Assembly: GCA_964016885.1 (NCBI GenBank) | Contig: OZ024740.1 | Span: 336,660,001 to 336,724,000 of the forward strand | Direction: 5' to 3' | Source: Eledone cirrhosa | Taxonomy: Eukaryota | Length of the DNA: 64,000 nt | In this document: piece by piece, positions 1 to 35,322 of the stretch | How positions within the stretch are numbered: position 1 is the first letter of the stretch | Layout of the letters: each line of letters opens with the position of its first letter | Translations under genes and position numbers: made by a program | The notes under the pieces: generated by a model | Told to the model about the DNA's origin: nothing | The model's database searches: none | What the model saw: only the letters and a program-made list of their open reading frames with translations

Positions 1-3000
1 GTTGGATCTCTGTGGTTGGGGTTGGAGCTGGGGGTGTTGGATATCTGTGGTTGGGGCTGAAGCTGTGGGTGTTGGATCTCTGTGGTTGGGGTTGGAGCGT
101 GAGGTGTTGGATCTCTGTGGTTGGGGTTGGAGCTGGAGGTGTTGGATCTCTGTGGTTGGGGTTGGAGCTGGAGGTGTTGGATCTCTGTGGTTGGGGTTGG
201 AACTGGGGGTGTTGGATATCTGTGGTTGGGGTTGGAGCTGGGGGTGTTGGATATCTGTTGTTGGGGCTGAAGCTGGGGGTGTTGGATCTCTGTCGTTGGG
301 GCTGAAGCTGGAGGTGTTGGATCTCTGTGGTTGGGGCTGAAGCTGGGGGTGTTGGATCTCTGTGGTTGGGGCTGGAGCTGGAGTTGTTGGATCTCTGTGG
401 TTGGGGTTGGATCTGGGGGTGTTGGATCTCTGTTGTTGGGGTTGGAGCTGGGGTGTTGGATCTCTGTGGTTGGGGCTGAAGCTGGGGGTGTTGGATCTCT
501 GTGGTTGGGGCTGGAGCTGGAGGTGTTGGATCTCTGTGGTTGGGGTTGGAGCTGGAGGTGTTGGATCTCTGTGGTTGGGGCTGAAGCTGGGGGTGTTGGA
601 TCTCTGTAGTTGGGGCTGGAGCTGGAGGTGTTGGATCTCTGTGGTTGGGGTTGGAGCTGGGGTGTTTGATCTCTGTGGTTGGGGTTGGAGCTGGGGTGTT
701 GGATCTCTGTGGTTGGGGTTGGAGCGTGAGGTGTTGGATCTCTGTGGTTGGGGTTGGAGCTGGAGGTGTTGGATTTCTGTGGTTGGGGCTGAAGCTGGGG
801 GTGTTGGATCTCTGTGGTTGGGGTTGGAGCTGGAGGTGTTGGATCTCTGTGGGGTTGGAGCTGGGGGTGTTGGATCTCTGTGGGGTTGGAGCTGGGGGTG
901 TGGGATCTCTGTGGTTGGGGTTGGAGCTGGGGGTGTTGGATCTCTGTGGTTGGTGTTGGAGCTGGAGGTGTTGGATCTCTGTGGGGTTGGAGCTGGGGGT
1001 GTTGGATCTCTGTGGTTGGGGTTGGAGCTGGAGGTGTTGGATTTCTGTGGTTGGGGCTGAAGCTGGGGGTGTTGGATCTCTGTGGTTGGGGCTGGAGCTG
1101 GAGGTGTTGGATCTCTGTAGTTGGGGTTGGAGCTGGAGGTGTTGGATATCTGTGGTTGGGGCTGAAGCTGGGGGTGTTGGATCTCTGTGGTTGGGGCTGG
1201 AGCTGGAGGTGTTGGATCTCTGTGGTTGGGGCTGGAGCTGGGGGTGTTGGATCTCTGTGGTTGGGGTTGGAGCTGCGGTGTTGGATCTCTGTGGTTGGGG
1301 TTGGAGCGTGAGGTGTTGGATCTCTGTGGTTGGGGTTGGAGCTGGAGGTGTTGGATTTCTGTGGTTGGGGTTGGAGCTGGGGGTGTTGGATATCTGTGGT
1401 TGGGGCTGAAGCTGGGGGTGTTGGATCTCTGTGGTTGGGGCTGGAGCTGGAGGTGTTGGATCTCTGTGGGGTTGGAGCTGGAGGTGTTGGATCTCTGTGG
1501 TTGGGGCTGGAGCTGGAGGTGTTGGATCTCTGTGGGGTTGGAGCTGGAGGTGTTGGATCTCTGTGGGGTTGGAGCTGGAGGTGTTGAATCTCTGTGGGGT
1601 TGGAGCTGGAGGTGTTGGATCTCTGTGGTTGGGGTTGGAGCTGGAGGTGTTGGATCTCTGTGGTTGGGGCTGGAGCTGGAGGTGTTGGATCTCTGTGTTT
1701 GGGGTTGGAGCTGGGGGTGTTGGATATCTGTGGTTGGGGCTGAAGCTGGAGGTGTTGGATCTCTGTGGTTGGGGCTGGAGCTGGAGGTGTTGGATCTCTG
1801 TGGGGTTGGAGCTGGAGGTGTTGGATCTCTGTGGTTGGGGTTGGAGCTGGAGGTGTTGGAAATCTGTGGTTGGTGTTGGAGCTGGAGGTGTTGGATCTCT
1901 GTGGTTGGGGTTGGAGCTGGGGGTGTTGGATCTCTGTGGTTGGGGTTGGAGCTGGGGGTGTTGGATCTCTGTGGGGTTGGAGCTGGGTGTGTTGGATCTC
2001 TGTGGGGTTGGAGCTGGAGGTGTTGGATCTCTGTGGGGTTGGAGCTGGAGGTGTTGGATCTCTGTGGGGTTGGAGCTGGAGGTGTTGGATCTCTGTGGGG
2101 TTTGAGCTGGAGGTGTTGGGTCTCTGTGGGTTTGGAGCTGGAGGTGTTGGATCTCTGTGGTTGGGGCTGGAGCTGGGGGTGTTGGATCTCTGTGGTTGGG
2201 GTTGGAGCTGGGGGTGTTGTATCTCTGTGTTTGGGGTTGGAGCTGGAGGTGTTGGATCTCTGTGTTTGGGGCTGAAGCTGGGGGTGTTGGATCTCTGTGG
2301 TTGGGGCTGGGGGTGTTGTATCTCTGTGGTTGGGGTTGGAGCTGGAGGTGTTGGATCTCTGTGTTTGGGGCTGCAGCTGGGGGTGTTGGATCTCTGTGGT
2401 TGGGGCTGCAGCTGGGGGTGTTGGATCTCTGTGTTTGGGGCTGCAGCTGGGGGTGTTGGATCTCTGTGGTTGGGGCTGCAGCTGAGGGTGTTGGATCTCT
2501 GTGTTTGGGGCTGCAGCTGGGGGTGTTGGATCTCTGTGTTTGGGGCTGCAGCTGGGGGTGTTGGATCTCTGTGTTTGGGGCTGCAGCTGGGGGTGTTGGA
2601 TCTCTGTGGTTGGGGCTGGGTGTGTTGGATCTCTGTGGGGTTGGAGCTGGAGGTGTTGGATCTCTGTGGTTGGGGCTGGAGCTGGGGGTGTTGGATCTCT
2701 GTGGTTGGGGTTGGAGCTGGGGCTGTTGGATCTCTGTGGTTGGGGTTGGAGCTGGAGGTGTTGGATCTCTGTGGTTGGGGTTGGAGCTGGAGGTGTTGGA
2801 TCTCTGTCGTTGGGGCTGGAGCTGGGGGTGTTGGATCTCTGTGGTTGGTGTTGGAGCTGGAGGTGTTGGATCTCTGTGGTTGGGGCTGAAGCTGGGGGTG
2901 TTGGATCTCTGTGGTTGGGGCTGGAGCTGGAGGTGTTGGATCTCAGTGGGGTTGGAGCTGGAGGTGTTGGATCTCTGTGGTTGGGGTTGGAGCTGGGGTG

Positions 3001-6000
3001 TTGGATCTCTGTGGTTGGGGCTGAAGCTGGGGGTGTTGGATCTCTGTGGTTGGGGCTGGAGCTGGAGGTGTTGGATCTCTGTGGTTGGGGTTGGTACTGG
3101 GGGTGTTGGATCTCTGTGGGGTTGGGGTTGGAGCTGGGGTGTTGGATCTCTGTGGTTGGGGTTGGAGCTGGGGTGTTTGATCTATGTGGTTGGGGTTGGA
3201 GCTGGGGTGTTGGATCTCTGTGGTTGGGGTTGGAGCGTGAGGTGTTGGATCTCTGTGGTTGGGGTTGGAGCTGGAGGTGTTGGATATCTGTGGTTGGGGC
3301 TGAAGCTGGGGGTGTTGGATCTCTGTGGTTGGGGCTGGAGCTGGAGGCGTTGGATTTCTGTGGTTGGGGTTGGAGCTGGGGGTGTTGGATCTCTGTGGTT
3401 GGGGCTGGAGCTGGAGGTGTTGGATCTCTGTGGGGTTGGAGCTGGAGGTGTTGGATCTCTGTGGTTGGGGTTGGAGCTGAAGTAGTTGGATTTCTGTGGT
3501 TGGGGTTGGAGCTGGGGGTGTTGGATATCTGTGGTTGGGGCTGAAGCTGGGGGTGTTGGATCTCTGTGGGGTTGGAGCTGGAGGTGTTGGATCTCTGTGG
3601 TTGGGGCTGGAGCTGGAGGTGTTGGATCTCTGTGGGGTTGGAGCTGGAGGTGTTGGATCTCTGTGGTTGGGATTGGAGCTGGAGGTGTTGGAAATCTGTG
3701 GTTGGGATTGGAGCTGGGGGTGTTGGATCTCTGTGGTTGGGGCTGGAGATGGAGGTGTTGGATCTCTGTGGTTGGGGTTGGAGCTGGGGGTGTTGGATTT
3801 CTGTGGTTGGGGTTGGAGCTGGGGGTGTTGGATCTCTGTGGTTGGGGCTGGAGAAGGAGGTGTTGGATCTCTGTGGTTGGGGTTGGAGCTGGAGGTGTTG
3901 GATCTCTGTGGTTGGGGTTGGAGCTGGGGGAGTTGGATCTCTGTGGTTGGGATTGGAGCTGGGGGTGTTGGATCTCTGTGGTTGGGGCTGGAGATGGAGG
4001 TGTTGGATCTCTGTGGTTGGGGTTGGAGCTGGGGGTGTTGGATCTCTGTGGGGTTGGAGCTGGGTGTGTTGGATCTCTGTGGGGTTGGAGCTGGAGGTGT
4101 TGGATCTCTGTGGGGTTGGAGCTGGAGGTGTTGGATTTCTGTGGGGTTGGAGCTGGAGGTGTTGGATCTCTGTGGGGGTTTGAGCTGGAGGTGTTGGGTC
4201 TCTGTGGGGTTGGAGCTGGAGGTGTTGGATCTCTGTGGTTGGGGTTGGAGCTGGAGGTGTTGGATCTCTGTGGTTGGGGCTGGAGCTGGGGGTGTTGTAT
4301 CTCTCTGGTTGGGGTTGGAGCTGGGGGTGTTGGATCTCTGTGTTTGGGGTTGGAGCTGGAGGTGTTGGATCTCTGTGTTTGGGGCTGAAGCTGGGGGTGT
4401 TGGATCTCTGTGGTTGGGGCTGGGGGTGTTGGATCTCTGTGGGGTTGGAGCTGGAGGTGTTGGATCTCTGTGGTTGGGGTTGGAGCTGGAGGTGTTGGAT
4501 CTCTGTGGTTGGGGCTGGAGCTGGGGGTGTTGGATCTCTGTGGTTGGTGTTGGAGGTGGAGGTGTTGGATCTCTGTGGTTGGGGCTGAAGCTGGGGGTGT
4601 TGGATCTCTGTGGTTGGGGCTGGAGCTGGAGGTGTTGGATCTCAGTGGGGTTGGAGCTGGAGGTGTTGGGTCTCTGTGGGGTTGGAGCTGGAGGTGTTGT
4701 ATCTCTGTGGTTGGGGTTGGAGCTGGAAGTTTTGGATCTCTGTCGTTGGGGCTGGAGCTGGGGGTGTTGGATCTCTGTGGTTGGTGTTGGAGGTGGAGGT
4801 GTTGGATCTCTGTGGTTGGGGCTGAAGCTGGGGGTGTTGGATCTCTGTGGTTGTGGCTGGAGCTGGAGGTGTTGGATCTCAGTGGGGTTGGAGCTGGAGG
4901 TGTTGGATCTCTGTGGTTGGGGTTGGAGCTGGAGGTGTTGGATCTCTGTGGTTGGGGTTGCAGCTGGAGGTGTTGGATCTCTGTGGTTGGGGTTGGAGCT
5001 GGAGGTGTTGGATCTCTGTGGTTGGGGTTGCAGCTGGAGGTGTTGGATGTCTGTGGTTGGGGCTGGAGGTGGGGGTGTTGGATCTCTGTGGTTGGGATTG
5101 GTGCTGGGGGTGTTGGATCTCTGTGGTTGGGGTTGGAGCTGGAGGTGTTGGATATCTGTGGTTGGGATTGGAGCTGGGGGTGTTGGATCTCTGTGGTTGG
5201 GGCTGAAGCTGGGGGTGTTGGATCTCTGTGGTTGGGGTTGGAGCTGGAGGTGTTGGATCTCTGTGGTTGGGGTTGGAGCTGGAGGTGTTGGAAATCTGTG
5301 TTTGGGGTTGGAGCTGGGGGTGTTGGATATCTGTGGTTGGGGCTGAAGCTGGAGGTGTTGGATCTCTGTGGTTGGGGCTGGAGCTGGAGGTGTTGGATCT
5401 CTGTGGGGTTGGAGCTGGAGGTGTTGGATCTCTGTGGTTGGGGTTGGAGCTGGAGGTGTTGGAAATCTGTGGTTGGTGTTGGAGCTGGAGGTGTTGGATC
5501 TCTGTGGTTGGGGTTGGAGCTGGGGGTGTTGGATCTCTGTGGTTGGGGTTTGAGCTGGGGGTGTTGGATCTCTGTGGGGTTGGAGCTGGGTGTGTTGGAT
5601 CTCTGTGGGGTTGGAGCTGGAGGTGTTGGATCTCTGTGGGGTTGGAGCTGGAGGTGTTGGATCTCTGTGGGGTTGGAGCTGGAGGTGTTGGATCTCTGTG
5701 GGGTTTGAGCTGGAGGTGTTGGGTCTCTGTGGGGTTGGGGCTGGAGGTGTTGGATCTCTGTGGTTGGGGCTGGAGCTGGGGGTGTTGGATCTCTGTGGTT
5801 GGGGTTGGAGCTGGGGGTGTTGTATCTCTGTGTTTGGGGTTGGAGCTGGAGGTGTTGGATCTCTGTGTTTGGGGCTGAAGCTGGGGGTGTTGGATCTCTG
5901 TGGTTGGGGCTGGGGGTGTTGTATCTCTGTGGTTGGGGTTGGAGCTGGAGGTGTTGGATCTCTGTGTTTGGGGCTGCAGCTGGGGGTGTTGGATCTCTGT

Positions 6001-9794: not shown

Positions 9795-10563
9795 ATATAT
9801 TGATATAGTTAATGTGTTAGGAAAAACATATAAGGCGTGATTAGAAAAATAATATTTAACTATACATTTTTACATATGTTTCGTTATTGAGTTATATCAC
9901 TGTCTACAGTTTTGTTAGGAAGTATTGCTAATTCCAATCAACCTTATCTATTGTCGCCATGTAGATCAACTGACACTAAATAGATTTGTTACCTGTCATC
10001 CATCCTGGCTTCAATACATTCTATTATATTAAGTCTATAGATGATCACTTCTAAACCAGTGGCAGGTACCATTTCTGTACAAGCAGAGACTCGGATACCC
10101 ATTGGTCAGCATGATAGCTACTCCTCCTTACCAGCACCACTATCAAAATATCTAGGAATTACACATTTTCTGATGAATTGTTGAGGTTAAAACATCCATT
10201 GTAGTAGAAGTAATAAATTCTATTAGAACCATTGTTGCTAGTTTGGCAGTTGCAGATAAGAGTGAAGTTAAGAACAAATATTTGGCGTCTACAGTCTATG
10301 TAATGTAGATTAGCTATTTGACGTAGGTAGGATTGATAGAGGTTGAAATAAGTGTAGAATTATAAGTTCCAATCCTTGGTTAGTTAGGGCTATAATTAGA
10401 GAATGTTTTTAGGAATTTACAGTTGAATTTCCTATTTTGTCTTGAATTCAGTAAATTATTAAGATTAAGATTTAAGATTTCTAGTACTTCCATATATTGA
10501 TATATATATATAGAGAGGGGACACCACATATCATGGGAGTACTCAATGTATGGGAAGATGCAT

Positions 10564-10619
10564 ATATGTATAATGAAATAAATATGGTTTTATAAATATA
10601 GTTTCCATTTATTAATATC

Positions 10620-10695
<76 letters not shown>

Positions 10696-10751
10696 GATAT
10701 TAATAAATGGAAACTATATTTATAAAACCATATTTATTTCATTATACATAT
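10564..10751. repeat. 188-bp perfect palindrome: 57-bp arms around a 74-bp (TA)n tract
   Basis: 10564-10620 is the exact reverse complement of 10695-10751. Confidence 0.95.
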
Positions 10752-10791
10752 TTCAGGGATACCAAATTAAATTATGGTATGCCTTCATCAG
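10745..10791 (-). ncRNA. Degenerate hammerhead-ribozyme-like motif
   Basis: Minus strand reads CTGATGA-AGGCATACCA-taatttaatt-TGGTATCCCT-GAAA-TATGTA. The core boxes and stem II are present, but stem I is not evident. Confidence 0.5.
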
Positions 10792-10974
10792 ACAAAATAC
10801 AATATATAACAGTTTTACAAATAAGCTTTGACGTACCCTTTTAAAATGCAACCATTATTTTTGGAATCCATTTATTAATATCGTATATCTACTCCAAATA
10901 ATTGTCGAGTGCTTTATATCAGTTATAAAAATATTTACTTGTTGTATCCCAACAATTTTAAATAGAACTTTGGC

Positions 10975-19749: not shown

Positions 19750-20362
19750 CAAGGAGACAGGTGATAAACTGAAGTTACTAGTAGTCATGAAAGTCAGAAG
19801 TCGGAAGAGAATTCCATGGGTGAGATGTGTTAGGGGAAAATATCAGAAGAGAATTTGCGATTACATTTAGGAACTCCAACTGTAAATAGATGAAACCTAG
19901 CCACCAACTGTAAATACAGGAAACCTAGCTAACAACTGTAAATACAGGAAACCTAGCCACCAACTATAAATAGATGAAACCTAGCCACCTACTGTAAATA
20001 GAGGAAACCTAGCCACCAACTGTAAATAGAGGAAACCTAGCTACCAACTGTAAATAAAGGTAACCTAGCTACCAACTGTAAATAGAGGAAACCTAGCCAC
20101 TAACTGTAAATAGAGGAAACCTAGCTACCAACTGTAAATACAGGAAACCTAGCTACCAACTGTAAATAGAGGAAACCTAGCTACCAACTGTAAATAGAGG
20201 AAACCTAGCTACCAACTGTAAATATAGGAAACCTAGCTACCAACTGTAAATATAGGAAACCTAGCCACCAATCTGGTGCTCGTTTAAACTTATGAAGTAA
20301 CAAAGAGAAAAGCTCATCAGAATAATTCCCATGAAAATATTTATAGAAAATTTAGAAACCAG
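19750..20362 (-). mobile_element. 3' end of a CR1/L2-like LINE ORF2, containing a minisatellite
   Basis: Minus strand gives IFYKYFHGNYSDELFSLL...RFHLFTVGVPKCNRKF...WNSLP, typical of the ORF2 C-terminus in this group. Confidence 0.72.
19876..20271. repeat. 28-bp minisatellite, about 14 copies (AACTGTAAATAGAGGAAACCTAGCYACC)
   Basis: Direct observation of a 28-bp period (19878, 19906, ...). Confidence 0.95.
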
Positions 20363-21294: not shown

Positions 21295-21890
21295 AGTTCT
21301 ATCACCATACTATCACCACTCTATCACCACTCTATCACCACTCTATCACCACTCTATTACCAACTCAACCACTACCCCAATCGTCACCTCCATCACCACT
21401 ACATCATCACTCCAATCACCACCTCTATCACCACTCCCATTAACACCTCTGTCACCACTCTATCACCACCACTCCATCACCACCACTCCAACACTACTCC
21501 ATCACGACTCCCATCACCACCTCGATCACCACTCCCATCACCACCTCGATCACCACTCCCATCACCACCTCAATCACCACTCCCATCACCACCTCAATCA
21601 CCACTCCCATCACCACCTCAATCACCACTCCCATCACCACCTCGATCACCACCCCCATCACCACCTCGATAACCATTCCCATTACCACCACAATCACCAC
21701 ATCCATCACCATCTCTAACACCACTACTGTATCCCCACCTCCATCACCACCACAATCACCACCACAATCCCCACCTCCATCTCCACTACAATCGCCGCCA
21801 TAATCCTCACCTCCAACATCACTACTGTATCACCACTCCCATCGCCACCCCAATCAACTCACCTATCCTTGCTTCCATCACCCCCTCTGT
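21295..21890. repeat. ATCACC-rich low-complexity tract with a 24-bp tandem core
   Basis: CCATCACCACCTCRATCACCACTC is repeated at about 21500-21700. Confidence 0.88.
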
Positions 21891-23574: not shown

Positions 23575-23610
<36 letters not shown>

Positions 23611-23611
<1 letters not shown>

Positions 23612-23821
23612 AAAAGGTAAACAGAAATAACAACACAATCGGTACAGTATATGGAAGGTATATATTAGGTTAACGCTTGATATAGCAAGAAGAGGGTCTT
23701 AACGTTTCGGACGCTAGTCCTTCATCAGAAGAAAGAATGAGAAATAAAATAGATTAAGGAGACGGGCGGGATGGAATTGGAAAAAATATCTTTAGATAAA
23801 AATAATAGGTCGATTCATGTT

Positions 23822-23826
<5 letters not shown>
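23611..23826 (-). mobile_element. About 216-bp hammerhead-bearing repeat (Penelope-like pseudo-LTR or retrozyme-like), copy 1
   Basis: Nearly identical to 34159-34375, flanked by (TA)n/(TG)n tracts, and contains a hammerhead motif. Confidence 0.7.
23697..23732 (-). ncRNA. Minimal type I hammerhead ribozyme
   Basis: TCTT-CTGATGA-A-GGAC-TAGC-GTCC-GAAAC-GTT-AAGA shows canonical CUGAUGA and GAAA boxes, stem II GGAC/GUCC, a palindromic AACGUU helix III and stem I UCUU/AAGA. Confidence 0.82.
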
Positions 23827-23882
<56 letters not shown>

Positions 23883-23949
23883 GGATGTGTGTGTATGTTG
23901 TGTGTTTATAGTGAAGAGGTGTTCCCGGTCCTTGTACCGTGGACACTCC

Positions 23950-24023
<74 letters not shown>

Positions 24024-24910
24024 TTTTCCTTTTGGTTTATCTGTGAAATTTTTTACAGAAAGAGTTTCAAAGTTTAGAAAAACACGTGATGCATTTCAAC
24101 TATATTAATATTTCGAAAGTTCTCGAAAGAATATTAACATAAAATTAGTATGGTATATTATCTATTCTTAGGTTACACTCCGCCGTTATCGTAATTCAAC
24201 TATTAATTTTTCTTTTTACAATCAGCTTTCGTAAGTATAAACCTTTCTAAACAGACCATTCGTTTGAGTAATCCTTTGATCTTAAACCACATTTACGACA
24301 TGATAGTTGATATAATTTAACGTTGCTATATCGTTATATCATTACCACCTATTCTTTATTTCTACTATATGTATATGTATAAGTCTAGATATCCTTGTAT
24401 TTATGTTTATATATGTATTACGCTCTATATATTTGTATATACGTATTACACTGTATATACTTGTATATATGTATTACACTGTACTTATTTGTATAGATAT
24501 ATGAATATATCGTTCTATATTTGTATACCTGTATTATTTAACCCAAATGTGTATATATGTACATATAGATGTGTGCATATATATATGTGTGTGTGTGTAT
24601 TCCATTACAAACACTTTGATTTTTATTCTTATATTTTATATTTCATCCTTCATCCATCGCAATATACTCCTTTCTTTACACGAGTAGCCCCCAATTTATG
24701 ATATTTTATTTATTTTATTTAAGACTACCAAACTAATTAATTGCCAAGTTACTACAAATTTAAATGTATATTCCTCACTTCAGATCCAGCATTAAACATG
24801 ATACCAAACGTATCAGTTCCAACATTCTTTTGGATATTACAGCAACACTGAGAATGAGATTCTAACACTTGAACAATCTAGTTTCTTTATTCGTTTGCTT
24901 AAGCTAGCAC

Positions 24911-25192
24911 CAGAGGCGTAACTAGGGTGTGGCACGCCTGGCACGTGACATGGGTGCCACTTGGACTAGGAGCATGTTCTATTAAAGTCAAATAAGCCTC
25001 GTCGGACAGTGAAAAAAGCAACCCCTTCAGATGTATGATCTGTCTCTGATTATCATGGGTGAGAACATTATGGTGCCTGGATCATTAAGCCAGTTATATA
25101 AATTATTAGGCCCATAGGTAAAAATACAGTGCTGGGCAGGGGCACAATTTCACTGCTTGCCATAGGCGCTATTTTTCCTAGTTATGCCTCTG
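24911..25192. mobile_element. 282-bp hAT MITE with perfect 8-bp TSD
   Basis: 16-bp TIRs CAGAGGCGTAACTAGG / CCTAGTTATGCCTCTG (1 mismatch), with GCTAGCAC at 24903-24910 and 25193-25200. Confidence 0.93.
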
Positions 25193-26559
25193 GCTAGCAC
25201 GCTTGAGAAAAATCTCTAGATATAAATACAACATAGCAGACAATAGTCACAGATTACAAGCCTTCACCTAGAGCGGTTAGAGCTATGCACCAGGCATTGT
25301 TCCAGACGATGGAAGAAATTATTGGGCAACTACCACCTGCCTCAAATACAGAACGAATGTTTTCCCTACGCATGATTTCGTTTGATGAGCCCATCAATCT
25401 ACTTTGAGTGTATGCCTCTGCATAAACTGTTGTTGATGTCGTTAAAGAAAACTTCTACAAGTAGCTGGACAGCTGTGTGAAATAGTTCCCCAAAAAGAAC
25501 CTTTGATAATATTAGAGTTTCTAATAATCGCTGCGATGTGCATAAATAGAGAAAGAAATGGGTGTACGCATGAAAGAAAAGAGCACTCAATACGTTTCGT
25601 TTCTGCAAGCTGACCAACTTAATACATAGTATAGCCACAAGCTTAACCAGCCAGATGACAGACAGACAGGCAGACAGATAGATATATTTCTTTATTAGCC
25701 ACAAGGGCGCACAAGAAAAGGGGACAAAACAAAGACATGCCGGGGATTTTACATACAATCGTGTAAAAATATGAAACAAACAATTATAACAATCGAAATA
25801 CCCAATAGAGGGGAGGCGCCACAAATGGGTTGTTTAATACCCCGTCGATAGAACAACCCTCAACTGCAGGAGCGTGTTGTGCAAGTGCTCATTTCTTCCT
25901 TTTGCTCTCTTCTTCAACCTACAGGTTTATATACAGAGAAGGCCCAATCACTCAGGGCATTTTTTCCACATTCACCCACCTTTCAGTAAATTTACTGGGG
26001 TGCAGTGCCTCTCTCTCCACTCTGATTCTCCTTCTAAAGTGGTATCTAAAGAAGGGAATGAGAGATAGATATGTTTCTTTATTAGCCACAGGGGCACAAA
26101 AGAAGGGGACAAATACAAAGGGGGAAGTTTACATACAATAAAAAAGGGAATGAGAGCTAGATAGATAGATAGATAGATAAACTAATGTACATCGTCAAAC
26201 AAGTTATATTGCAGTGTCGTGACATTATTATGACTATCAGAAATTGGTAGGATAGACTTTAGTCTTCTAGCTTTGTATTAATTAGTGAAAAGAGATAGGT
26301 TAAGAGAGAAATCTAAAGAATAATCGATAATTCCAGACTACAATTCTGAAAGAAAGATATGACCTGAAGTGAAGTTAATGCATAAGAAGAATACGTTGGT
26401 TCTTGGCAGCAACTTATTCATTTATAGTTAAACATTTTACATTATCATATCATTACGTCCTTTGTCTCTATTAGTTTAAAGTATAATTACTGGTGTATGT
26501 GTATATCATTAACTAAAATAAGATGATGTGTTGTAACAGAAATGGACATCCGTCGGTTT

Positions 26560-28345
26560 CGACAAAATATATATTCCAGCTGTCGGATCAACAGAACAGC
26601 CTATTCATGAAATTAACAAGTAAGAGACTGAGCATTCCACAAACGCTTGTACCCTTAACGAAAGTTTAAACGAGATTCAATGTGACATAATGCACGACAC
26701 GATTGGCCCTTTTTTGAATTACAGGTACTATCCATCTGACTGGCTTTTAACATCTCATTTACGTAGAATTTTGAAGAGGGTGAAAATCGGCGAGAAATTG
26801 AACTCAAAAATAAGCCAACCTCCTCCATTTTACCACCGTTTTTTTCTTTTTTGTCACATATTTCTCAGCTTATATATGAGTATATACGGTATATGTGGTG
26901 ATGATATTTCCTGATATGTATGTGCACTGTGTCTATGTTGTTAAAAGTAATAAGGCAGACATGTTCCCCTACCTCAACCCACATCGGAGATTGTTTTTGC
27001 TGTCATGGATCCATTGTAGGTTTGATCTGAAAATTGTATGTGGGCAACATTTGAATGTGAAAAACATAGATGACAGAAGAGTGGAATCATCTGTAGATGA
27101 GTCATCGATGTTAGGTGGCAGCTAATAGTCTATTAATGTTCAGGAAAATATTACTGTATGGAGAGGACATAACTAAATCTTGGCACACTTCTTCGTATGG
27201 ATCAGAGGAAACCACACCAGTACACTTAGCACATTTCTATTCGTGAAATTAACATGTAAGTGACTGAGTATTCCACAAACGCTTGTACCCTTAACTAAAT
27301 TTTAAAGGAGATTCAATGTGACATAATGTACGACACGATTGGCCCTTTTTTAATTACAGGTATTATCCATCTGACGGGCTTCCAAGCAGTTTCTGTCTAC
27401 CCAATTTCACTCACAAGGCATGAGTCGATCCGAGGCTATGACAAATGACACATGCCCGAGATACCACGCAATGGGGTCAAGCTCCAGACCTAATAATTGT
27501 AAAACGAACTCTTTAGCCATTCTCCCATGCTGACAATACCACATTTGTATAACTAAATGAAAGATGAATCAATCAGAACGCTGTTACAAGCTCGTTCGAC
27601 CTGCTAGAAATAGCAACCAAATCATTGCCCTGTCGTGATAAAAACAAGAAAGACATAAAAGAATCAATGGTGTAGTTTATTAATTTCCTAAAAGATGGTA
27701 TGATCGCGGCTGAAACAGCTTTCATTGAAGATTTTCTGAATCAAGATTACCTTATGGCTAAACAACAACAACTGTGATATAAAAAGGGCTTAACGTGATT
27801 GCTCAGCGTACAAGAAATAGCAGATAAATTTCATTAAATCATTTCTTATCTTTAAAAACAGAAGGGGGCATCTGTATTGAGGATAATGTTGTTCAAGATA
27901 GAGAACAAAAGCAGAACGATCACGCTTTTAACGTATTTGATCATTAATCTATTCATTTGCTCAATCAGAAGAAACCTGGAGCTAAATACAACAACACTGA
28001 GATGAATTCTCCGTCAGATTCGACGACGATCATTCAGTTGTTCATTTATCGTCCAACTCGCTAATTAACTAGTAAGTGGTTGAGTATTCCATAAACACGT
28101 GTATCCGTAACATAATTCTCAGGTAGAATCAACGAGACACAACATGTGACAAGGCAGGGCCTTTGAATTACAGGTACAATCTATCCGAAGAGCTTCTATA
28201 TATTTTCCATCTATCCAATTTCACTCACAAGACTTGAATCGACCCGAGGCTACAATAAAGACACTTGCCCAAGGTGACACATAGTGGGATCGAACCCTGG
28301 AACATGATTGTGAAGCAAATTTCTCAACCATTCAGCTATTCCTAT
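26560..28345. mobile_element. Cluster of SINE family C copies (minus) and (CAA)-tailed family D repeats (plus)
   Basis: The motif GAGTATTCCAC...TGTACCCTTAAC...TTTGAATTACAGGTA recurs here and at about 20640, 22620, 51990 and, inverted, 30350. The motif TAGAAATAGCAGCCAAAT...CTAAACAACAAC also recurs. Confidence 0.75.
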
Positions 28346-31300
28346 ATCCAGACAACACCTATGTATAAATGGTACTGTAACTCCTGAGAGAGTCGTTGGG
28401 GCGATTTTTCTAGGGCAATTTTTAAACCTGGCGGAGCCCATCTCCCCTCCAGGTATGAATACAGCAGATTTCTTCCAGAAATGGATTGAGAGAATGTAAA
28501 TGAGAAAGATATATAGAGGAGGAATTGACTTCAGTACTTGAGTGGTATTTTTTTATCGACTTTGAATAGATGAAAGGCAAAATTGACCTCGGCTGGATTT
28601 GAACTCAGAGAGCACAGAGTCGGAATGAATACCGTAAAGCATTCTATCCGATGTTCTAACGAATCTGCCAATTCGCCGCCTATACACAACACCTATAGAT
28701 ATGAGATATTTGGTTAGGATAAGTAGGTTAGGGGGACCGAGCCAACCTCACCTTCATGCGGTAGTCACTAGGAAAGCATTTACTATAATGCTTTGCTAAC
28801 GAGGTTCAGTGTATGAAAAAAATATGTTGATGAACTATAATGATGTACGTACATGCGTATACACACACACATACACACATACATGTCGCAACTATTCATC
28901 GCATATTTGCCGATCATCAGACATGATGTGGCATGAAAAGAGGAAGTTGGTTAGGATTGCACTACTACTAGTTTTATTGCTTGTTTTATAACCACACAAA
29001 CAACAGCTTTTGCAACAGTTGTGTATGGAAAATAAGCAGAAGGCTGTGGTTGTCATGATTTCCTTAACATGACAGACCTAAACTAAATTATATAATCTTC
29101 AACCCCCAGAAAGTGTGAAGAGTTCAAATTCCACCGAGGTTAGCTTTGCCTTTCATCCTTTCGTGGTCGATAATATAAAGTACCAGTAATGCACTAGGGT
29201 CTAATTGATCGACTTTCCCCTACTTTTCAAGTTGCTGGTCTTGTGCCAAAAATAGAAACAATTATTTTTACTTTGGGCGCAAGGCCAGTCATTTGTAGGA
29301 GGCGGAATCGATTAAATCGACCAAATACTTGACTGGTACTTTATTTTATAGATCCCTAAAGGGTGAAAGGTAAAATTTACCTTGTAGGCATTTGAATTCA
29401 GAACGTCAAAAACCGGAACGAATACTGCTATGCATTTGTCGGAAATTTTAACAACTCTACCAATCCCCTACCAATTTGGAGGAAGGGAAAGTCGATTAAA
29501 TCGACTCAGTGCATTACTGGTACTTTATTGTAAAGATGAAAGGCAAAGCTAACCTCGGCAGGATTTGAACTCAAATTGTAAAGGGGCGTAACACTATGCC
29601 ATAAAGCATGGTCTCCGACACTCTAACAACTCTACCAGTCCACCAGCTTATGATAGAAATTAATAATAAACTGCACCTTTGTATTTCAAGTTCAAATTTT
29701 ATTAATTTGGTCTTGACTGGTGCTATTTTAACGACCCTGTAACAATGAGGGTCAAAGTCGACCGGAGCGGGATATGAACTCAGAAGGTTATAAAGGTGTA
29801 ACTAAACACCGCTATTTTACCGATTCTGCCAATGCCAACCACTCTAATCAGTAACTTAATGTATATAAAGATCAATAGAAATGACAGCGATGGTAGACAG
29901 CCAAATATATATTACAGAGTCGTTAAGGTATCCGATAAAATGCCTTGTGGTATTCATGCCGACTCTGCACTCGGAGTTTAAATCTCGCCGAGGCCACTTT
30001 TTCTTTTCATCCTTTCTGGATCGATAATGTACCAGTCCAGTTCAGTCCTGGGATCGATTTCTGTCTCTCTCTCTCTTTCTCTATCATCGGGTGTGTTTCA
30101 GCCTGAAGGATAGTCACCGCCAGGTTTTAAATTCCTTTATGTCGCGACGATGCATCTACGACTTCGTTAGGAGTTATAGGATCAGATCGACAATATTTTA
30201 CTACCTTCTGAGTTCAAAGTTTCGATAAATTAAGTACCAGTAATGTTCGTAAGGTAGCGAGTTCGATTCCTGGCGATACCTTGTATCCTTGGGCAAGACA
30301 CTTTATTTCACGTTGCTTCAGTCCACTCAGTTGAATCTCTTTGTGAAATACATTAAGGGTACACGTGTCTGTGAAATTCTCATCCACTTGTATATTACTT
30401 TCACGAGCTGGCTATTCTGTGGTTCGATCAACTGGAACACTCGTCGTCGGAAGCGACGGAGGTCCAACAACAAAAACAATGTTCTGGGGCTCGTGTCAGT
30501 CACCTTTATCTATCACACCGCCCCCAACAAGTTTTGTGGCGTTGTACCAAAGTTAAACATCTTTTATTGAATGTTTTGCTCTGTATATGATGTATATATA
30601 TATATTTAGCTAGTGTAAAAATATGTATAAAGAGAAATGCGAAATAGTAATCAAGTAGTCAGGTGGAATTGTAAGCCGAAGAATACTGTTTCATTCAAAG
30701 AATGGAAGGAATGCACTAGAGACTCGACTGTAAAAAAATATTCTTGTAATTCTTTATTTTTATAACCTCTAGTCACGAAATCTGTTGCCTCTTTGCTGCT
30801 CTGGCAATTTTGGTTAGTAGTGCAAACCTAAAACACTTGCAAGTTGCTTTTTTGTTGTTGTTCTTGTGGGTTTCTTTGTTTTTTTTGTTGTATTTTTGGT
30901 TGATTTTTTTGTGGGTGGATGGGTGGGGTTGCAGATTTTTCTACCTGTCTAGCTGGAAACTGCTGTTTTGTTATTGCAGCTGCAACTACTGCTAATATCG
31001 TTCTTGGTGTTGTTGCAGTCGAGATAGTAATGATTAAGTAGAGGTGAATGATGATGGGAAGCGGTAGATGAAATAAGTTTATATAAACTTATTTTTACTA
31101 AGGTTTTAAACCCCTGGGGCTTAAACTATTTCATTTTTCGGTAATGTTGCACTCCGTTGACACAATTTAGCCATGTCGAACCACTTTCAAGGACATTGAA
31201 GGAGGTATGAATATCCCTGAATCTCTCCGAGGCTCCTATCCCTGTAAATTGATGACCTGGTGAACTTATACTAAAATAATATACTAAATCCAAGGGCGGT

Positions 31301-34102
31301 GCCCCAGCATGGCCTCAGCCGGATGGCTGAAACAGGTAAAAGAGTAAAAGAGTAAATCGATTCAACAAATGACTGGAAAATATCAAATTCGTTTCCATTG
31401 GCTTTACCTCAAACACACATACTCAGAAACACGCTAAAAATAGACTCTAATTTGTTACAATAACCTACTTGTGGGTATCAACAATAGGGCTGAGAGGAAA
31501 TACCGCAGGGGAATGTTCTGTATACTAAATATAGGTGCTCTGATTCTGTAATTCTGCCGTTGTTCACTTCATCATCTCTAATGAACACAGTGTAGTGGAT
31601 TGGCAGAATCATTAGAGTGTTGGATAGAATGTTTTACAGTATTCGTTCCGATACTCGATGATCTGAATTCAAATCCCACCAAGGTCAACTTCGCCTTTCA
31701 TTTTCTGGAGTTGATAAAATAAAGTACCAGTCAAGTACTAGAGTTGATATAATCGACTTTTCCCTCCCTCAAAATTGCTGGCCTTATATCCAAATCAACA
31801 TCTTAAGTGAGCACATCATGTGAGTGCAAGGCATTTTAGCATTGTATTTTTTTACACATATTTCTTTGTTTCTTGAATTTGTTAAAGGTTTTTTTGTTGT
31901 TCTAAGCCATTCTAGATATTTAATATTTCTTTGTATTTTTGCTTCTCTGATTTCCTTTACTCAGAAATAGAAGACTAAATTTTAATCAATTCGTTGTGGT
32001 TATTGTACTTTTTTATATAAATCGCCACACTTTTCGTCACATGTCCCTCACTTGTTACCTATGTGGCAATAATAAAGAAAGAATTGTGATTGTTATTAAG
32101 GGGGGCGGTGGATTGACAGAATCGTTAGTTGTGGCTGTTTACTTTCGGAGTTCAATTCCAGCTGAAGTAAACTTTCATCCTTGAAGGGGTGATGAAAAAA
32201 AAATATCACTTAAGTGTTGGAGTCGGTGTAATCGACTTTCGCTTATAGCCATCCCACCCTCAAAAATATTATTAAGAAGTCGATTGAGTGACGGTTTTTA
32301 GTTATGTGTTTTTACATTCCTGGTTCAAATCTTGTCTGAGCCGACTTTTCCTTTCGTAGTTCAAGGAGAATCTATAAAATAAATTACCAACCATCGCCTG
32401 TTCACCCACTCTTAAAGGAGATTGGGCTGACCAGACTGTAGCTAAAGGTAGCACAGTATTTAAAGGGCGCCAGATTGCTTTTTTTTTGTTACCATAAATA
32501 ATAAGCAAGGGTCCCATGCAAGACTAGTTCAGCTCTGCTCCAACCTCCGGAATATTTACCTTGTGCTGTGGAGAAAAATGATGGAATGACTGCTAAACAA
32601 AATGCATAACGTGACTTAGATACGTTTCTTTAAGTTCTGAGTTCAAATCGTACCTAAGTCAACTTTGATCTTCCATCCTTGCTGGTTGATTAAATAAGTA
32701 CCAAACGTCTACTGATGTCGATAAAGTCAATACTACCCCTCCCCGTTCTACTTACATACATCTAGCATTGAGCCAGTGGAGGAATTGTTAGAAGGAAAGT
32801 AGCAGGATCAGTGACAGAAAGGATAGAGTGCCGGACCAAATGTCTTACAGAATTCAATTACGTTCTTTCTGAGTTCAAATCACAGAGGTTAACTTCATAT
32901 TGTATAACTTCAAGGTGGTGTGCTGTCGGAATCATTAGCGTGCCGAACGGGATACTTTGCAGTATTTGTTCGTTGCATTCTAAATTCAAATCCGTCATAG
33001 CCTACTTGGGTGCTAGGCTTAATCCGCTGTCTGGTTTAACACCACCATCAAGTATTCGTAGCCGGTTTCGAGTTGACGGATACCTTCCTCCCTAACACCA
33101 ATCTTGGAGGCTCAAAAAAGGATCATCAACGTTTCGCTTTACTGCGACTAAACGATAAAAAGAAAAAACCTTTTCCTTTAGCAGTCAAGTATTGGTGTTA
33201 AATTTTTAATCAACTGTTCGCTCTTTTAAAATGTGTAATATCGTGTTTAGAAATTATTATTGTTGCGGTTGTTGTTTAGTCCAAGTGCAGACTTGATTGA
33301 GAAGGTCTATGATCAGCTGAGAAGACCTATGCCCCAACTGTGGACATTTCATCAGTTTGTATGTCCTGGACAACATTGTATTACACAATCTGTGATTCCT
33401 GTTTTTCATGGTGTGATGTAATCTGAGGGAAATTTGACTGATATTTCTAGCAGATCAAGCTATTGCCAAAAGGCGCTCATGGTGATCAGTTATTACTATT
33501 GTTGTTTTTAGGGCGATTGGTTAGCAGAATCCTTAGAGCATCGGGAAAATGTCTCGTAGTAGTGAAGTCTATGTTTCGCTGAAAATGTCTCAAAGAACCA
33601 AAACCTGTCTAAAGTTGTCTCCCGTACATTCAGAAAGACTCGAAATAATGTTAACCAATGGACTAATATTTAAGAGAGCGTCGGACACCATGCTTTGCAA
33701 CATAGAGTTACGGTCTTTTACGTTCTGAGTTCAAATCCCGACGAGGTTAGCTTTCCCTTTCATCCTTACGGGGTCGATAAAATAAAGTATCAGTTACGCA
33801 CTGAAGTCGATTTAATCGACTTTCCCCTCCCCCAAAATTGCTTCCCTTGTGCCTAAATCAGAACCTATTATTTGCTCAAATTCTGTTACGATTATCAACA
33901 TTATCACTCATTCACCTGAGTTGTATATGTCAGCCCTAGTGTTATAGGTCTATGATAAAAGGCGTTTTAGCTACGACAATTCGGTCTTTCTCCCATCATC
34001 TGTGTATCTAGCACTGCAGTTTTCAACATGTTCGAACCTTTATACATACATACATACATACATACAAGCGATTCTTTGCTTAAACTTTAATCTGTTATTT
34101 TA

Positions 34103-34149
<47 letters not shown>

Positions 34150-34158
34150 GTATATATG

Positions 34159-34375
34159 TAAAAGGTAAACAGAAATAACAACACAATCGGTACAGTATAT
34201 GGAAGGTATATATTAGGTTAACGCTTGATATAGCAGGAAGAGGGTCTTAACGTTTCGGACGCTAGTCCTTCATCAGAAGAAAGAATGAGAAATAAAATAG
34301 ATTAAGGGGACGGGCGGGATGGAATTGGAAAAAAATGTCTTTAGATAAAAATAATAGGTTCATTCATGTTGACAT
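34159..34375 (-). mobile_element. Hammerhead-bearing repeat, copy 2
   Basis: Differs from 23611-23826 at only a handful of positions and is preceded by (TA)n. Confidence 0.7.
34245..34280 (-). ncRNA. Minimal type I hammerhead ribozyme (identical to 23697-23732)
   Basis: Same 36-nt sequence as 23697-23732. Confidence 0.82.
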
Positions 34376-35322
34376 TTCTTGCAAAACTGTTGGTGCTGGC
34401 GTTTTGTGTATGATTTGTTTTTTTAGAAAAGTGGATGATGGCGCGCGTCTATTATTACTTTTATGATTTTAATAACCTCTGTCATTTTCGTTCTACTAGT
34501 TTATTTACATTATTCTTAACTCCGGGCGGTGAATTGGCAGTATCGGTAGAGGGTCGGACATGCTTTCCGGCATAGTTACGTCCATTTACGATCTGAGTTC
34601 AAATCCCTGAATTTGCCTTTCATCCATACAGAGGTCGATAAAATAAAGTACCAGTAATGTACTGGGTAATTGCTGGCCTTGTGCCAAAAGTAGAAACAAT
34701 TATTCTTAACTCCTAAGCTGAGAATCATTCGGTTTCCTAAATAGAATATTAGTCTAATAACTCCATTTATACCATAAACGTGGTTTTGTCTTTGCGTGTA
34801 TTTGTTCTCAGTGATCCATATAACGACGTATTATCTTCGCTTTTTTCCGTTCATTGCCAGGGAACGTCTTCACGAACCAAAGTATCGTCTTCCTGTTTTC
34901 CTTCGGTTGCAACGTTTTTTGAAATATTTACTTCTGCGTTCACAGATTGTTTTTTTTTTTTGTAGTTTCAGAAGATCCCGTTAAGGGTGAAAGCAGCGAT
35001 TCTTTGCTTAAACTTTACTTTGTTATTTTAATAAATAAATATATATAAATATAATTTCCGCAAGATCGAATTTCGGCAGTGGTCGAAAACAAAGCGAAAC
35101 GCAATATCCGAGTTATGCGGCAAGCACTCCATGGACTAAAAAAAAGACCAGAGCAATAAACATAGGTTATAGAGGCCAAACAACTGAGAATGGTGATCAA
35201 GAAGCTATCAACCACCTAAGCCAAAAAACGAAGCAGGCCAAACAGGTCAAACAAAAGAATATTTACCTGGACCCCTGGAATTGATGGTATAATCCAATAA
35301 AGGGTTTCTGCGACACCTAAAT

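What the first reader, a model, noticed from the sequence alone, without database searches (positions are those of the whole stretch)
23611..34375. Young, duplicated ~216-bp non-coding element carrying an intact minimal hammerhead ribozyme
Seen: two near-identical copies 10,548 bp apart, both abutting (TA)n or (TG)n. Each carries UCUU-CUGAUGA-A-GGAC-UAGC-GUCC-GAAAC-GUU-AAGA on the minus strand, and all differences fall outside the motif. Known: such minimal hammerheads with a palindromic, loopless helix III occur in Penelope-like pseudo-LTRs and non-autonomous retrozymes and are reported to cleave as dimers. Inference: an active microsatellite-targeting, ribozyme-bearing retroelement family, possibly producing small or circular RNAs. 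No RT ORF was recognised between the copies.
Basis: partly seen in the sequence, partly recalled or inferred. Interest (0 to 1): 0.75.

Follow-up and report, generated by a model that had tools for sequence, protein, structure and literature searches.

The report
Truncated Penelope retrotransposon tails with hammerhead
The two repeats are broken-off 3' ends of an abundant Penelope-like retrotransposon that sits in TA/CA microsatellites and carries that group's known minimal hammerhead motif, which is predicted (untested) to self-cut only in pairs, so this is an ordinary instance of a known system.

Summary
There are two direct copies 10,548 bp apart, each with the same 36-nt minimal hammerhead (HHR) motif on the minus strand, next to (TA)n/(TG)n.

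They are not a 216-bp unit. They are 5'-truncated 3' ends (216-222 and 293-301 nt) of a roughly 3.5 kb Penelope-like element (PLE). [quoted passage not shown] Some have an upstream pseudo-LTR that carries the HHR.

The exact 32-nt HHR occurs 2,559 times in the genome. All 30 sampled places belong to this family. Their 5' ends are ragged, and most flanks are microsatellites.

The motif meets every sequence feature published for PLE min-HHRs. In runs labelled as two other organisms, cover rises 10- to 17-fold over the ribozyme and contigs break away at its edges. Inserted copies decay equally inside and outside it. Cleavage is untested, no RNA run was on record, and no tandem arrays or circles were seen.

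The "non-coding 216-bp active element/retrozyme" reading is not. Earlier notes of this scan describe the same kind of element elsewhere in this genome. It is a new member of a known kind, of low interest.

The parts
23611..23826 (-). Copy 1: 5'-truncated 3' end of the Penelope-like element. It is 216 nt, or 222 nt if the ambiguous CA..CA at 23605-23610 is counted.
   Evidence: It aligns to the 3' end of the RT-bearing copy L031 at 96.8%. It is 97-100% identical to 40 of 40 scored genomic copies. The 5' junction lies directly on (TA)n.
23697..23732 (-). Minimal type-I hammerhead motif of copy 1: helix I UCUU/AAGA, core CUGAUGA, bulged A, helix II GGAC/GUCC with loop UAGC, then GAA and the palindromic ACGU. 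The predicted cut after GUU lies between 23701 and 23700.
   Evidence: Cleavage itself is not tested.
23575..23610 (.). (TA)n(TG)n microsatellite at the 3' junction of copy 1
   Evidence: Read. The same type of junction occurs in 27 of 28 family copies examined.
23827..23879 (.). (TA)n microsatellite at the 5' (truncation) junction of copy 1
   Evidence: Read. In one search, L001 has an (AT) run filling the 40 nt upstream.
34159..34451 (-). Copy 2: 5'-truncated 3' end of the same element. It is 293 nt, or 301 nt by BLAST (34151-34451).
   Evidence: It aligns to L031 at 96.7% over 301 nt. Beyond 34451 the sequence is unlike other copies.
34245..34280 (-). Minimal hammerhead motif of copy 2, identical to that of copy 1. 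The predicted cut lies between 34249 and 34248.
   Evidence: In the runs of organisms B and D, cover rises 10- to 17-fold over 34249-34278, and loose ends sit at 34244-34250 and 34282-34285.
34107..34158 (.). (TA)n(CA)n microsatellite at the 3' junction of copy 2
   Evidence: Read.

Best explanation
Both repeats are dead, 5'-truncated 3' ends of a roughly 3.5 kb Penelope-like retrotransposon, and their hammerhead motif is predicted, not shown, to self-cleave. [quoted passage not shown]

Shown here:
- The family is abundant in this genome.
- Its 3' end lies on (TA)n/(CA)n in nearly all copies.
- Its 5' ends are ragged.
- Longer copies carry the RT and nuclease frames on the same strand as the hammerhead.
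- Some full-length copies are preceded by a direct partial copy (a pseudo-LTR) with the same hammerhead.

Inferred from what is known of PLEs:
- The nuclease likely nicks microsatellite DNA.
- The RT likely copies the RNA from its 3' end (target-primed reverse transcription) and usually stops early, which leaves tails like these two.
- In transcripts that span a pseudo-LTR plus the element body, two hammerheads would pair through their palindromic ACGU to build helix III. They would then cut after GUU and trim the RNA to unit length.
- The two window copies are single, 10.5 kb apart and most likely inert.
For: Abundance: 2,474 first-look candidates were found, and all 40 scored are 97-100% identical. 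The exact 32-nt hammerhead has 2,559 places against 0 for the reversed control. All 30 position-ordered places align to this family.

Link to coding copies: tails continue upstream for 1.4-1.8 kb in L031-L034. L031 reads ADKGGAVVVW, YGRYIDDCIG, CSRCNIC and VVYALQCSLCGSLYIGQTG on the hammerhead strand. L047 has a 687-aa open frame.

Homology: 365 proteins match at E<=1e-10. Of the 120 listed, most carry precomputed PF00078 and 18 carry PF01541. The nuclease piece is 44% identical (E 2e-37) to residues 666-805 of P0014. Residues 708-751 of P0014 pass Pfam's GIY-YIG cut-off.

Architecture: of 19 copies that hold the 5' region, 5 have a direct tail copy upstream (3 with the exact hammerhead) and 2 have an inverted one. 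The 5' terminus TCAACGCTTACG follows (TA)n.

Ragged 5' ends: 222 to more than 1,732 nt in one sample and 149-1,165 nt in the other.

Microsatellites: 27 of 28 3' junctions carry a dinucleotide run, as do 17 of the 28 5' junctions that could be placed. Random 40-nt windows of the window show such a run in 6.6% of cases, and distal flanks in 17% (218 of 1,260).

Hammerhead: it has all the sequence features listed for PLE min-HHRs in PMC4209133 (passages read). A second PLE family (70% RT identity) has 0.8-1.1 kb pseudo-LTRs, each with CUGAAGA-A-GGGC-UUAU-GCCC-GAAAC-GUC at the same distance from the 3' end. Its helix II has a compensatory A-U to G-C change, and a G.U intermediate was seen in L004.

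Other organisms: in runs labelled as organisms B and D, cover rises 10- to 17-fold over the ribozyme bins and contigs break away at its edges.
Against: No cleavage, transcription or circular RNA evidence exists.

Rfam's hammerhead models do not match.

For the isolated 36-mer the hammerhead fold (-5.9 kcal/mol) is less stable than an alternative fold (-7.7). Helix I pairs have probability 0.09-0.19 and helix II pairs 0.49. The intermolecular helix III could not be scored with a nested-structure program.

Pfam hits on this family's own frames are weak. RVT_1 scores 26 and 23.7 bits against a cut-off of 29.6, and GIY-YIG gives no hit. A search with the nuclease piece against longer proteins found nothing.

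In the 30 best-matching copies, substitutions are as frequent inside the motif (16 minority calls in 36 nt, 0.44 per nt) as outside it (73 in 180 nt, 0.41 per nt).

5' ends are not spread evenly. 14 of 30 lie 226-251 nt from the 3' end, which plain random truncation does not predict.

The clade (Neptune or Nematis) rests on motifs, not on a tree.
Confidence: 0.88

Rival explanations
1. The roughly 216-240 nt sequence is a non-autonomous element in its own right (a SINE-like passenger or non-LTR retrozyme). It would share only its 3' end with the PLE, borrow the PLE's enzymes and possibly make small circular RNAs.
For: In the position-ordered sample, 14 of 30 copies are 226-251 nt long and only 1 of 30 exceeds 500 nt. 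A preprint argues that animal retrozymes derive from PLE pseudo-LTRs (10.64898/2026.07.22.740005, abstract read). Contigs of organisms A and C often diverge about 135-139 nt from the 3' end, at 34293/34297, so other lineages may share only the terminal module.
Against: The clustered 5' ends start at many different nucleotides within TTTTGCAAGAGATGTCAAC, not at one terminus. Among the 30 most similar copies, 7 are longer than 1.1 kb and have tails as close to copy 1 (97-98%) as the short ones. Among the 100 listed places of the exact motif there are no same-strand neighbours within 20 kb, only two inverted pairs (spacing read by eye). Copy 2 itself is 293-301 nt long.
Confidence: 0.07
2. The hammerhead-like motif is a conserved sequence of the PLE 3' end that serves another purpose, such as RT recognition, and does not cleave in vivo.
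For: Published PLE min-HHRs showed no cleavage as monomers and only low activity as dimers or trimers in vitro (PMC4209133, passages). PLE clades that lack canonical HHRs still proliferate (PMC8557442, passages). The alternative fold is more stable than the hammerhead fold.
Against: All 11 core positions, the G10.1-C11.1 pair, the bulged base and the palindromic helix III are kept. Helix II changes by compensation between two families. In the runs of other organisms, contigs break away within a few nt of helix I on both sides.
Confidence: 0.2
3. The two copies are the ends of one local segmental duplication or one long composite element spanning 23.6-34.4 kb.
For: They are in direct orientation, about 97% identical and 10.5 kb apart.
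Against: Their flanks differ on both sides beyond simple repeats. No PLE protein matches anywhere in the window. The same sequence has thousands of dispersed copies on many contigs.
Confidence: 0.01

Closest known systems
Minimal hammerheads (min-HHR) in pseudo-LTRs of metazoan Penelope-like elements (Cervera and de la Pena 2014, PMC4209133; passages read)
   Same: Type-I layout with the CUGANGA...GAAA core, an extra base between positions 9 and 10.1, and a G10.1-C11.1 pair. Helix I has 4 bp. Helix III is reduced to palindromic 15.2-16.2 without a loop. The motif lies in the terminal repeat on the sense strand of a PLE and occurs in thousands of copies.
   Different: Helix II is 4 bp here, whereas the Schistosoma families described have 7-8 bp. 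That paper stresses extreme sequence variability within a genome, whereas here one exact 32-mer occurs 2,559 times. The paper's text does not mention molluscs ('mollus' gave 0 occurrences).
C-terminal-EN+ PLEs with a CX2-5CxxC linker (Neptune/Nematis clades; Craig et al. 2021, PMC8557442, passages read)
   Same: RT with a DKG motif, a CX2CxxC linker ahead of GIY-YIG, pseudo-LTRs, an inverted 5'-truncated copy upstream, heavy 5' truncation, insertion in microsatellites, and an HHR in the pseudo-LTR.
   Different: Clade placement by tree was not done. 5' ends show a hot zone at 226-251 nt that is not mentioned in the passages I read.
Metazoan non-LTR retrozymes (Cervera and de la Pena 2020, PMC7229834, search listing only; Li et al. 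2026 preprint, abstract only)
   Same: Short, non-coding, HHR-bearing repeats related to PLE pseudo-LTRs.
   Different: Retrozymes are tandem arrays of units that give circular RNAs. Here the copies are dispersed single tails of a coding element, with no tandem arrays seen.
Rfam hammerhead families
   Same: The catalytic core.
   Different: No match at gathering score or at E up to 10. The likely reason, which I infer, is that helix III is missing.

Membership tests
PLE minimal hammerhead (min-HHR) | Core CUGANGA ... GAAA with A15.1-U16.1 and a non-G base at position 17 | tested here: met
   CUGAUGA ... GAA-ACGU-U in both copies.
PLE minimal hammerhead (min-HHR) | [quoted passage not shown] | tested here: met
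   CUGAUGA-A-GGAC...GUCC-GAA. The feature list comes from PMC4209133.
PLE minimal hammerhead (min-HHR) | Helix III reduced to palindromic 15.2-16.2 with no loop, and a short helix I (4-5 bp) | tested here: met
   ACGU, and UCUU/AAGA of 4 bp with no further pairing.
PLE minimal hammerhead (min-HHR) | Lies in the terminal repeat (pseudo-LTR) of a PLE, on the sense strand | tested here: met
   It is on the same strand as the RT/nuclease frames and 87-122 nt from the 3' end. It is present in upstream direct tail copies of L053, L056 and L057.
PLE minimal hammerhead (min-HHR) | Helices supported by compensatory change between families | tested here: met
   Helix II is GGAC/GUCC here and GGGC/GCCC in family 2, with a GGGC/GUCC intermediate. 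This rests on only two families, so support is thin.
PLE minimal hammerhead (min-HHR) | Self-cleavage, as a dimer | not testable with these tools
   No RNA run was on record. The dimer is non-nested and could not be scored.
EN+ Penelope-like element (Neptune/Nematis type) | PLE-type RT (DKG motif, YIDD) | tested here: met
   Motifs were read. 365 relatives match at E<=1e-10. Pfam RVT_1 on the family's own frames stays below the cut-off.
EN+ Penelope-like element (Neptune/Nematis type) | C-terminal GIY-YIG nuclease | tested here: met
   There is no direct Pfam hit. The piece is 44% identical (E 2e-37) to the C-terminus of P0014, which passes Pfam's GIY-YIG cut-off. VVY...YIGQT was read.
EN+ Penelope-like element (Neptune/Nematis type) | CX2-5CxxC linker before the nuclease (absent in Penelope/Poseidon, CxCX5C in Hydra) | tested here: met
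   CSRCNIC in L031 aligns with CKRTRCKTC of P0014. The criterion comes from PMC8557442.
EN+ Penelope-like element (Neptune/Nematis type) | Pseudo-LTR partial tandems, inverted upstream copies, and 5' truncation | tested here: met
   5 of 19 copies have a direct upstream tail and 2 of 19 an inverted one. 5' ends are ragged.
EN+ Penelope-like element (Neptune/Nematis type) | Placement within Neptune or Nematis on an RT tree | not tested
   No reference PLE set was at hand.
Metazoan non-LTR retrozyme | Head-to-tail tandem arrays of short HHR units with no coding relatives of the same sequence | tested here: not met
   The two copies are 10.5 kb apart. No same-strand neighbours lie within 20 kb among the 100 listed places. 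Longer copies of the same sequence code for RT and nuclease.
Rfam hammerhead families | Score at or above the gathering threshold | tested here: not met

The most novel reading that the evidence does not exclude
The terminal module that holds the ribozyme may be an exchangeable cassette. The 36-nt hammerhead alone, or the last 135-139 nt, is kept almost letter for letter in otherwise unrelated repeats of at least three related organisms. It may move between Penelope lineages or ride on them. The pile-up of 5' ends 226-251 nt from the 3' end may mark a defined stop or processing signal that makes a roughly 236-nt tail the main product of this family.
Probability: 0.15. Interest if true: 0.5.

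Novelty: new member of a known kind. Interest (0 to 1): 0.2.

Why it matters
It matters little as a discovery. Minimal hammerheads in Penelope-like pseudo-LTRs, heavy 5' truncation and microsatellite targeting are all in print (PMC4209133, PMC8557442), and this scan has already noted the same kind of element elsewhere in this genome.

Its use is practical. It identifies a repeat family with more than 2,500 copies that Rfam does not flag. It shows that 'orphan' hammerheads next to TA repeats in this genome are retrotransposon stubs, not genes.

It also offers a clean family for the still open question of whether PLE hammerheads cut in vivo. One exact ribozyme sequence is available, with coding copies and pseudo-LTR copies at hand.

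Tried and rejected
- Rfam gave no hammerhead, either at gathering scores over the whole window or at E<=10 around copy 1. The 18 matches include no hammerhead; nearly all are miRNA-family models lying on the (TA)n/(TG)n tracts.
- No RNA holder was listed for the stretch, so expression, cleavage ends and circles could not be looked at. All four runs laid were contigs, which cannot show molecule ends.
- The dimeric (intermolecular helix III) fold is non-nested, so ViennaRNA could not evaluate it. The cofold minimum was a different structure.
- Pfam on the family's own nuclease fragments gave no hit. A search with the 142-aa nuclease piece against longer proteins gave none at E<=1e-5.
- The idea that tails are more conserved than the RT region was dropped. 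The tail-selected and RT-selected samples are biased in opposite ways.
- L047 was taken at first as the longest copy, but it diverges from the other 39 scored copies upstream of query base 109.
- The 951-aa frame of L049 gave a strong RVT_1 hit of a different kind. It was not used for the family-2 argument, which rests on L050 and L051.
- Segmental duplication was rejected (see rivals).
- One search failed on a search-term format and was repeated.
- The search of earlier findings by place gave nothing.
Full report
**Observation.** The two copies are real.
- The repeat finder reports 23602-23786 / 34150-34334 (97%, spacing 10,548) and 23781-23826 / 34330-34375 (93%).
- The pairwise alignment shows 5 substitutions and one 1-nt indel over the shared 216 nt.
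- The pattern CTGATGA-N13-GAAAC occurs exactly twice, at 23704-23728 and 34252-34276 on the minus strand. The expected number is 0.02, and 0 of 100 shuffles reached two.
- The whole motif is UCUU-CUGAUGA-A-GGAC-UAGC-GUCC-GAA-ACGU-U-AAGA, at 23697-23732 and 34245-34280.
- Both copies end on (TA)n/(TG)n or (TA)n(CA)n.
- That none of the 6 differences falls in the 36-nt motif has a chance probability of about 0.33 (my arithmetic), so it says nothing.

**What the copies are.** The window lies in a 3.0 Gb genome of 1,796 contigs.
- The 216-nt query found 2,474 first-look candidates. All 40 scored are 97-100% identical.
- Read in the hammerhead orientation, most of the 30 fetched loci continue upstream beyond the 216 nt with shared sequence.
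- Copy 2 does the same, up to 34451.
- Four loci extended to 10 kb share 1.4-1.8 kb upstream of the tail.
- On the hammerhead strand L031 reads, in broken frames, ADKGGAVVVW, PGRPIVS, YGRYIDDCIG, the linker CSRCNIC and VVYALQCSLCGSLYIGQTGHR...AEH.
- L047 keeps a 687-aa open frame through the RT.

**Homology of the protein.**
- Pfam on these decayed frames gives only sub-threshold RVT_1 (26 and 23.7 bits, cut-off 29.6) and no GIY-YIG.
- The 687-aa frame has 365 relatives at E<=1e-10 in animals. Named examples include sharks, a newt, snails, corals and a crinoid.
- Of the 120 listed, most carry precomputed PF00078 and 18 carry PF01541.
- The nuclease piece is 44% identical (E 2e-37) to residues 666-805 of P0014. 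Residues 708-751 of P0014 pass Pfam's GIY-YIG cut-off.
- The DKG motif and the CX2-5CxxC linker are the features that Craig et al. 2021 give for Neptune/Nematis-type C-terminal-EN+ PLEs. By contrast, Hydra has DKT and CxCX5C, and Penelope/Poseidon has no linker (PMC8557442, passages).
- I did not build a tree.

**Architecture of the family.**
- A search with the most 5' part then known showed that L047 is the odd one out. The other 39 scored copies match only from query base 109-111, and the 19 of them fetched as loci share further sequence upstream among themselves.
- Of those 19 loci, 5 have a direct copy of the tail upstream (L053, L056, L057, L065, L068). Three of these carry the exact hammerhead. 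Two (L062, L070) have an inverted tail copy.
- The full-length 5' terminus reads TCAACGCTTACGTGGACC and follows (TA)n. Where a pseudo-LTR is present, only a short (TA)n run separates the two.
- From these landmarks I estimate the full length at about 3.5 kb (coordinates).
- A second PLE family, about 70% identical in RT, shows the textbook form. It has 0.8-1.1 kb pseudo-LTRs that are 98% identical, each with a hammerhead about 120 nt from its end.
- No PLE protein matches the window (tblastn).

**Truncation and target.**
- In the 30 best-matching loci, element lengths run from 222 to more than 1,732 nt.
- In a sample chosen only by position (the first 30 places of the exact 32-nt hammerhead), all 30 belong to this family. 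Their lengths are 149-1,165 nt.
- In that sample, 14 of 30 are 226-251 nt long and only 1 of 30 exceeds 500 nt.
- The clustered 5' ends begin at many different nucleotides inside TTTTGCAAGAGATGTCAAC. This is a hot zone, not one terminus. I cannot explain it.
- At the 3' end the element stops at ...CCTTTTA followed by CA(TA)n or (CA)n in 27 of 28 loci read.
- 5' flanks carry a dinucleotide run of 4 or more units within 40 nt in 17 of the 28 loci whose junction could be placed and in 14 of 30.
- Such a run occurs in 6.6% of random 40-nt windows of the window and in 17% of distal flanks (218 of 1,260).
- After alignment extension into the repeat, the 3' counts were 22 of 30 and 19 of 30. These are underestimates.
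- Microsatellites on both sides point to insertion into existing repeats, as reported for PLEs (PMC8557442).

**The hammerhead.** The motif has every sequence feature that Cervera and de la Pena list for PLE min-HHRs (PMC4209133, passages):
- the extra base between positions 9 and 10.1;
- the G10.1-C11.1 pair;
- palindromic 15.2-16.2 with no loop;
- a helix I of 4-5 bp;
- a location in the terminal repeat.

Family 2 differs in helix II by a compensatory change (GGAC/GUCC against GGGC/GCCC). A G.U intermediate occurs in L004. Other hammerhead-like families with 5-6 bp helix II stems turned up in the 440,505 bases I held.

Rfam does not see the motif. Alone, the 36-mer prefers another fold (-7.7 against -5.9 kcal/mol). 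Helix I pairs have probability 0.09-0.19. This fits the published finding that such motifs do not cut as monomers and cut only weakly as dimers in vitro. It is no evidence for activity.

**Conservation.** The answer has two sides.
- Among the 30 best-matching copies the motif decays like the rest, with 0.44 against 0.41 minority calls per nt. This is expected of dead insertions.
- Between lineages the motif stands out. Contigs of four runs were laid on copy 2. In the run of organism B, cover rises from about 25 to about 430-440 over 34249-34278. In the run of organism D it rises from roughly 100-150 to 1,100-1,630.
- In those two runs, loose ends lie at 34244-34250 and 34282-34285, within a few nt of the ribozyme's borders (34245-34280).
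- In organism B's run, 109 of 114 laid contigs fit only in part.
- Inside the motif, the only variant at 10% or more in any run is 34261 G>A, a CpG in loop 2. Twenty-seven other variable places lie in the remaining 257 nt.
- These are contigs, so depth is only a rough guide.

**Mechanism.** The steps below are inferred from the PLE literature, not shown here.
- The GIY-YIG nuclease likely nicks microsatellite DNA.
- The RT likely primes on the nick and copies the RNA from its 3' end, mostly stopping early.
- In transcripts that span a pseudo-LTR and the body, two hammerheads would pair through ACGU and cut after GUU. This would give unit-length RNA that starts about 86-90 nt before the end of the tail.
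- The two window copies are single stubs 10.5 kb apart and most likely do nothing.

**Comparison and novelty.** This is a member of a known kind. It is not a retrozyme, because there are no tandem arrays and longer copies of the same sequence are coding. I did not find this particular family named in the passages I read, and 'mollus' does not occur in the text of PMC4209133. Earlier notes of this scan report Penelope-type hammerheads in TA repeats on other pieces of the same genome. I recall, but did not see, Lunse et al. 2017 on dimeric PLE hammerheads. Arkhipova 2006 is known to me only through the passages of PMC8557442. Supplementary files of the papers were not opened.

**Verdict.** The finding is ordinary, with interest 0.2.

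Noticed in passing
window 10560-10800: This is another hammerhead-like tail of a different family. On the minus strand at 10751-10791 lies CTGATGA-A-GGCATACCA...TGGTATCCC-T-GAAA-TAT-G. It has a long helix II and a G at the expected cleavage position, so it is probably decayed. About 60 nt downstream is a (TA)n tract. On the other side of that tract lies a reverse-complement copy of the last roughly 60 nt, giving two tails joined tail-to-tail round one microsatellite.
   Followed up: partly
loci L072-L101 (G000 contig C1); also L002, L003, L005, L022, L027, L030: 5' ends of the family pile up 226-251 nt from the 3' end (14 of 30 in the position-ordered sample). They start at different nucleotides within TTTTGCAAGAGATGTCAAC. 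This is a truncation hot zone with no explanation so far.
   Followed up: partly
window 34293-34297, as seen in runs X1 and X6: Many contigs of organisms A and C share the last 135-139 nt of the element, including the hammerhead, and then diverge. Other lineages or passengers may share only this terminal module.
   Followed up: no
G000 C1:79372018/79372537 and C1:149488495/149488677: Two close inverted pairs of the exact hammerhead, 519 and 182 nt apart. They fit the inverted-copy arrangements described for PLE insertions.
   Followed up: no
L050 (minus strand, rc positions 1512-1519) and L061: A further hammerhead-like motif, CTGATGA-TTTCTCCCGAAT-GAAAC-AGT, lacks the G10.1-C11.1 pair. In L050 it occurs as a close inverted pair.
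   Followed up: no
window 34520-34650 and 28500-33830: Several copies of a tRNA-like SINE (...GAGTTCAAATCC...GGTCGATAAAATAAAGTACC...) lie in both orientations around and between the two PLE tails.
   Followed up: no
window 21340-21890 and 20000-20330: There are 12/24-nt and 28-nt tandem repeats (CCACCTC.ATCACCACT type) upstream of copy 1.
   Followed up: no
L049 (minus strand, 2293-5145): A 951-aa open frame gives a strong RVT_1 hit (E 1.3e-26). It looks like a different, non-PLE reverse transcriptase next to or fused with the family-2 PLE copy.
   Followed up: no
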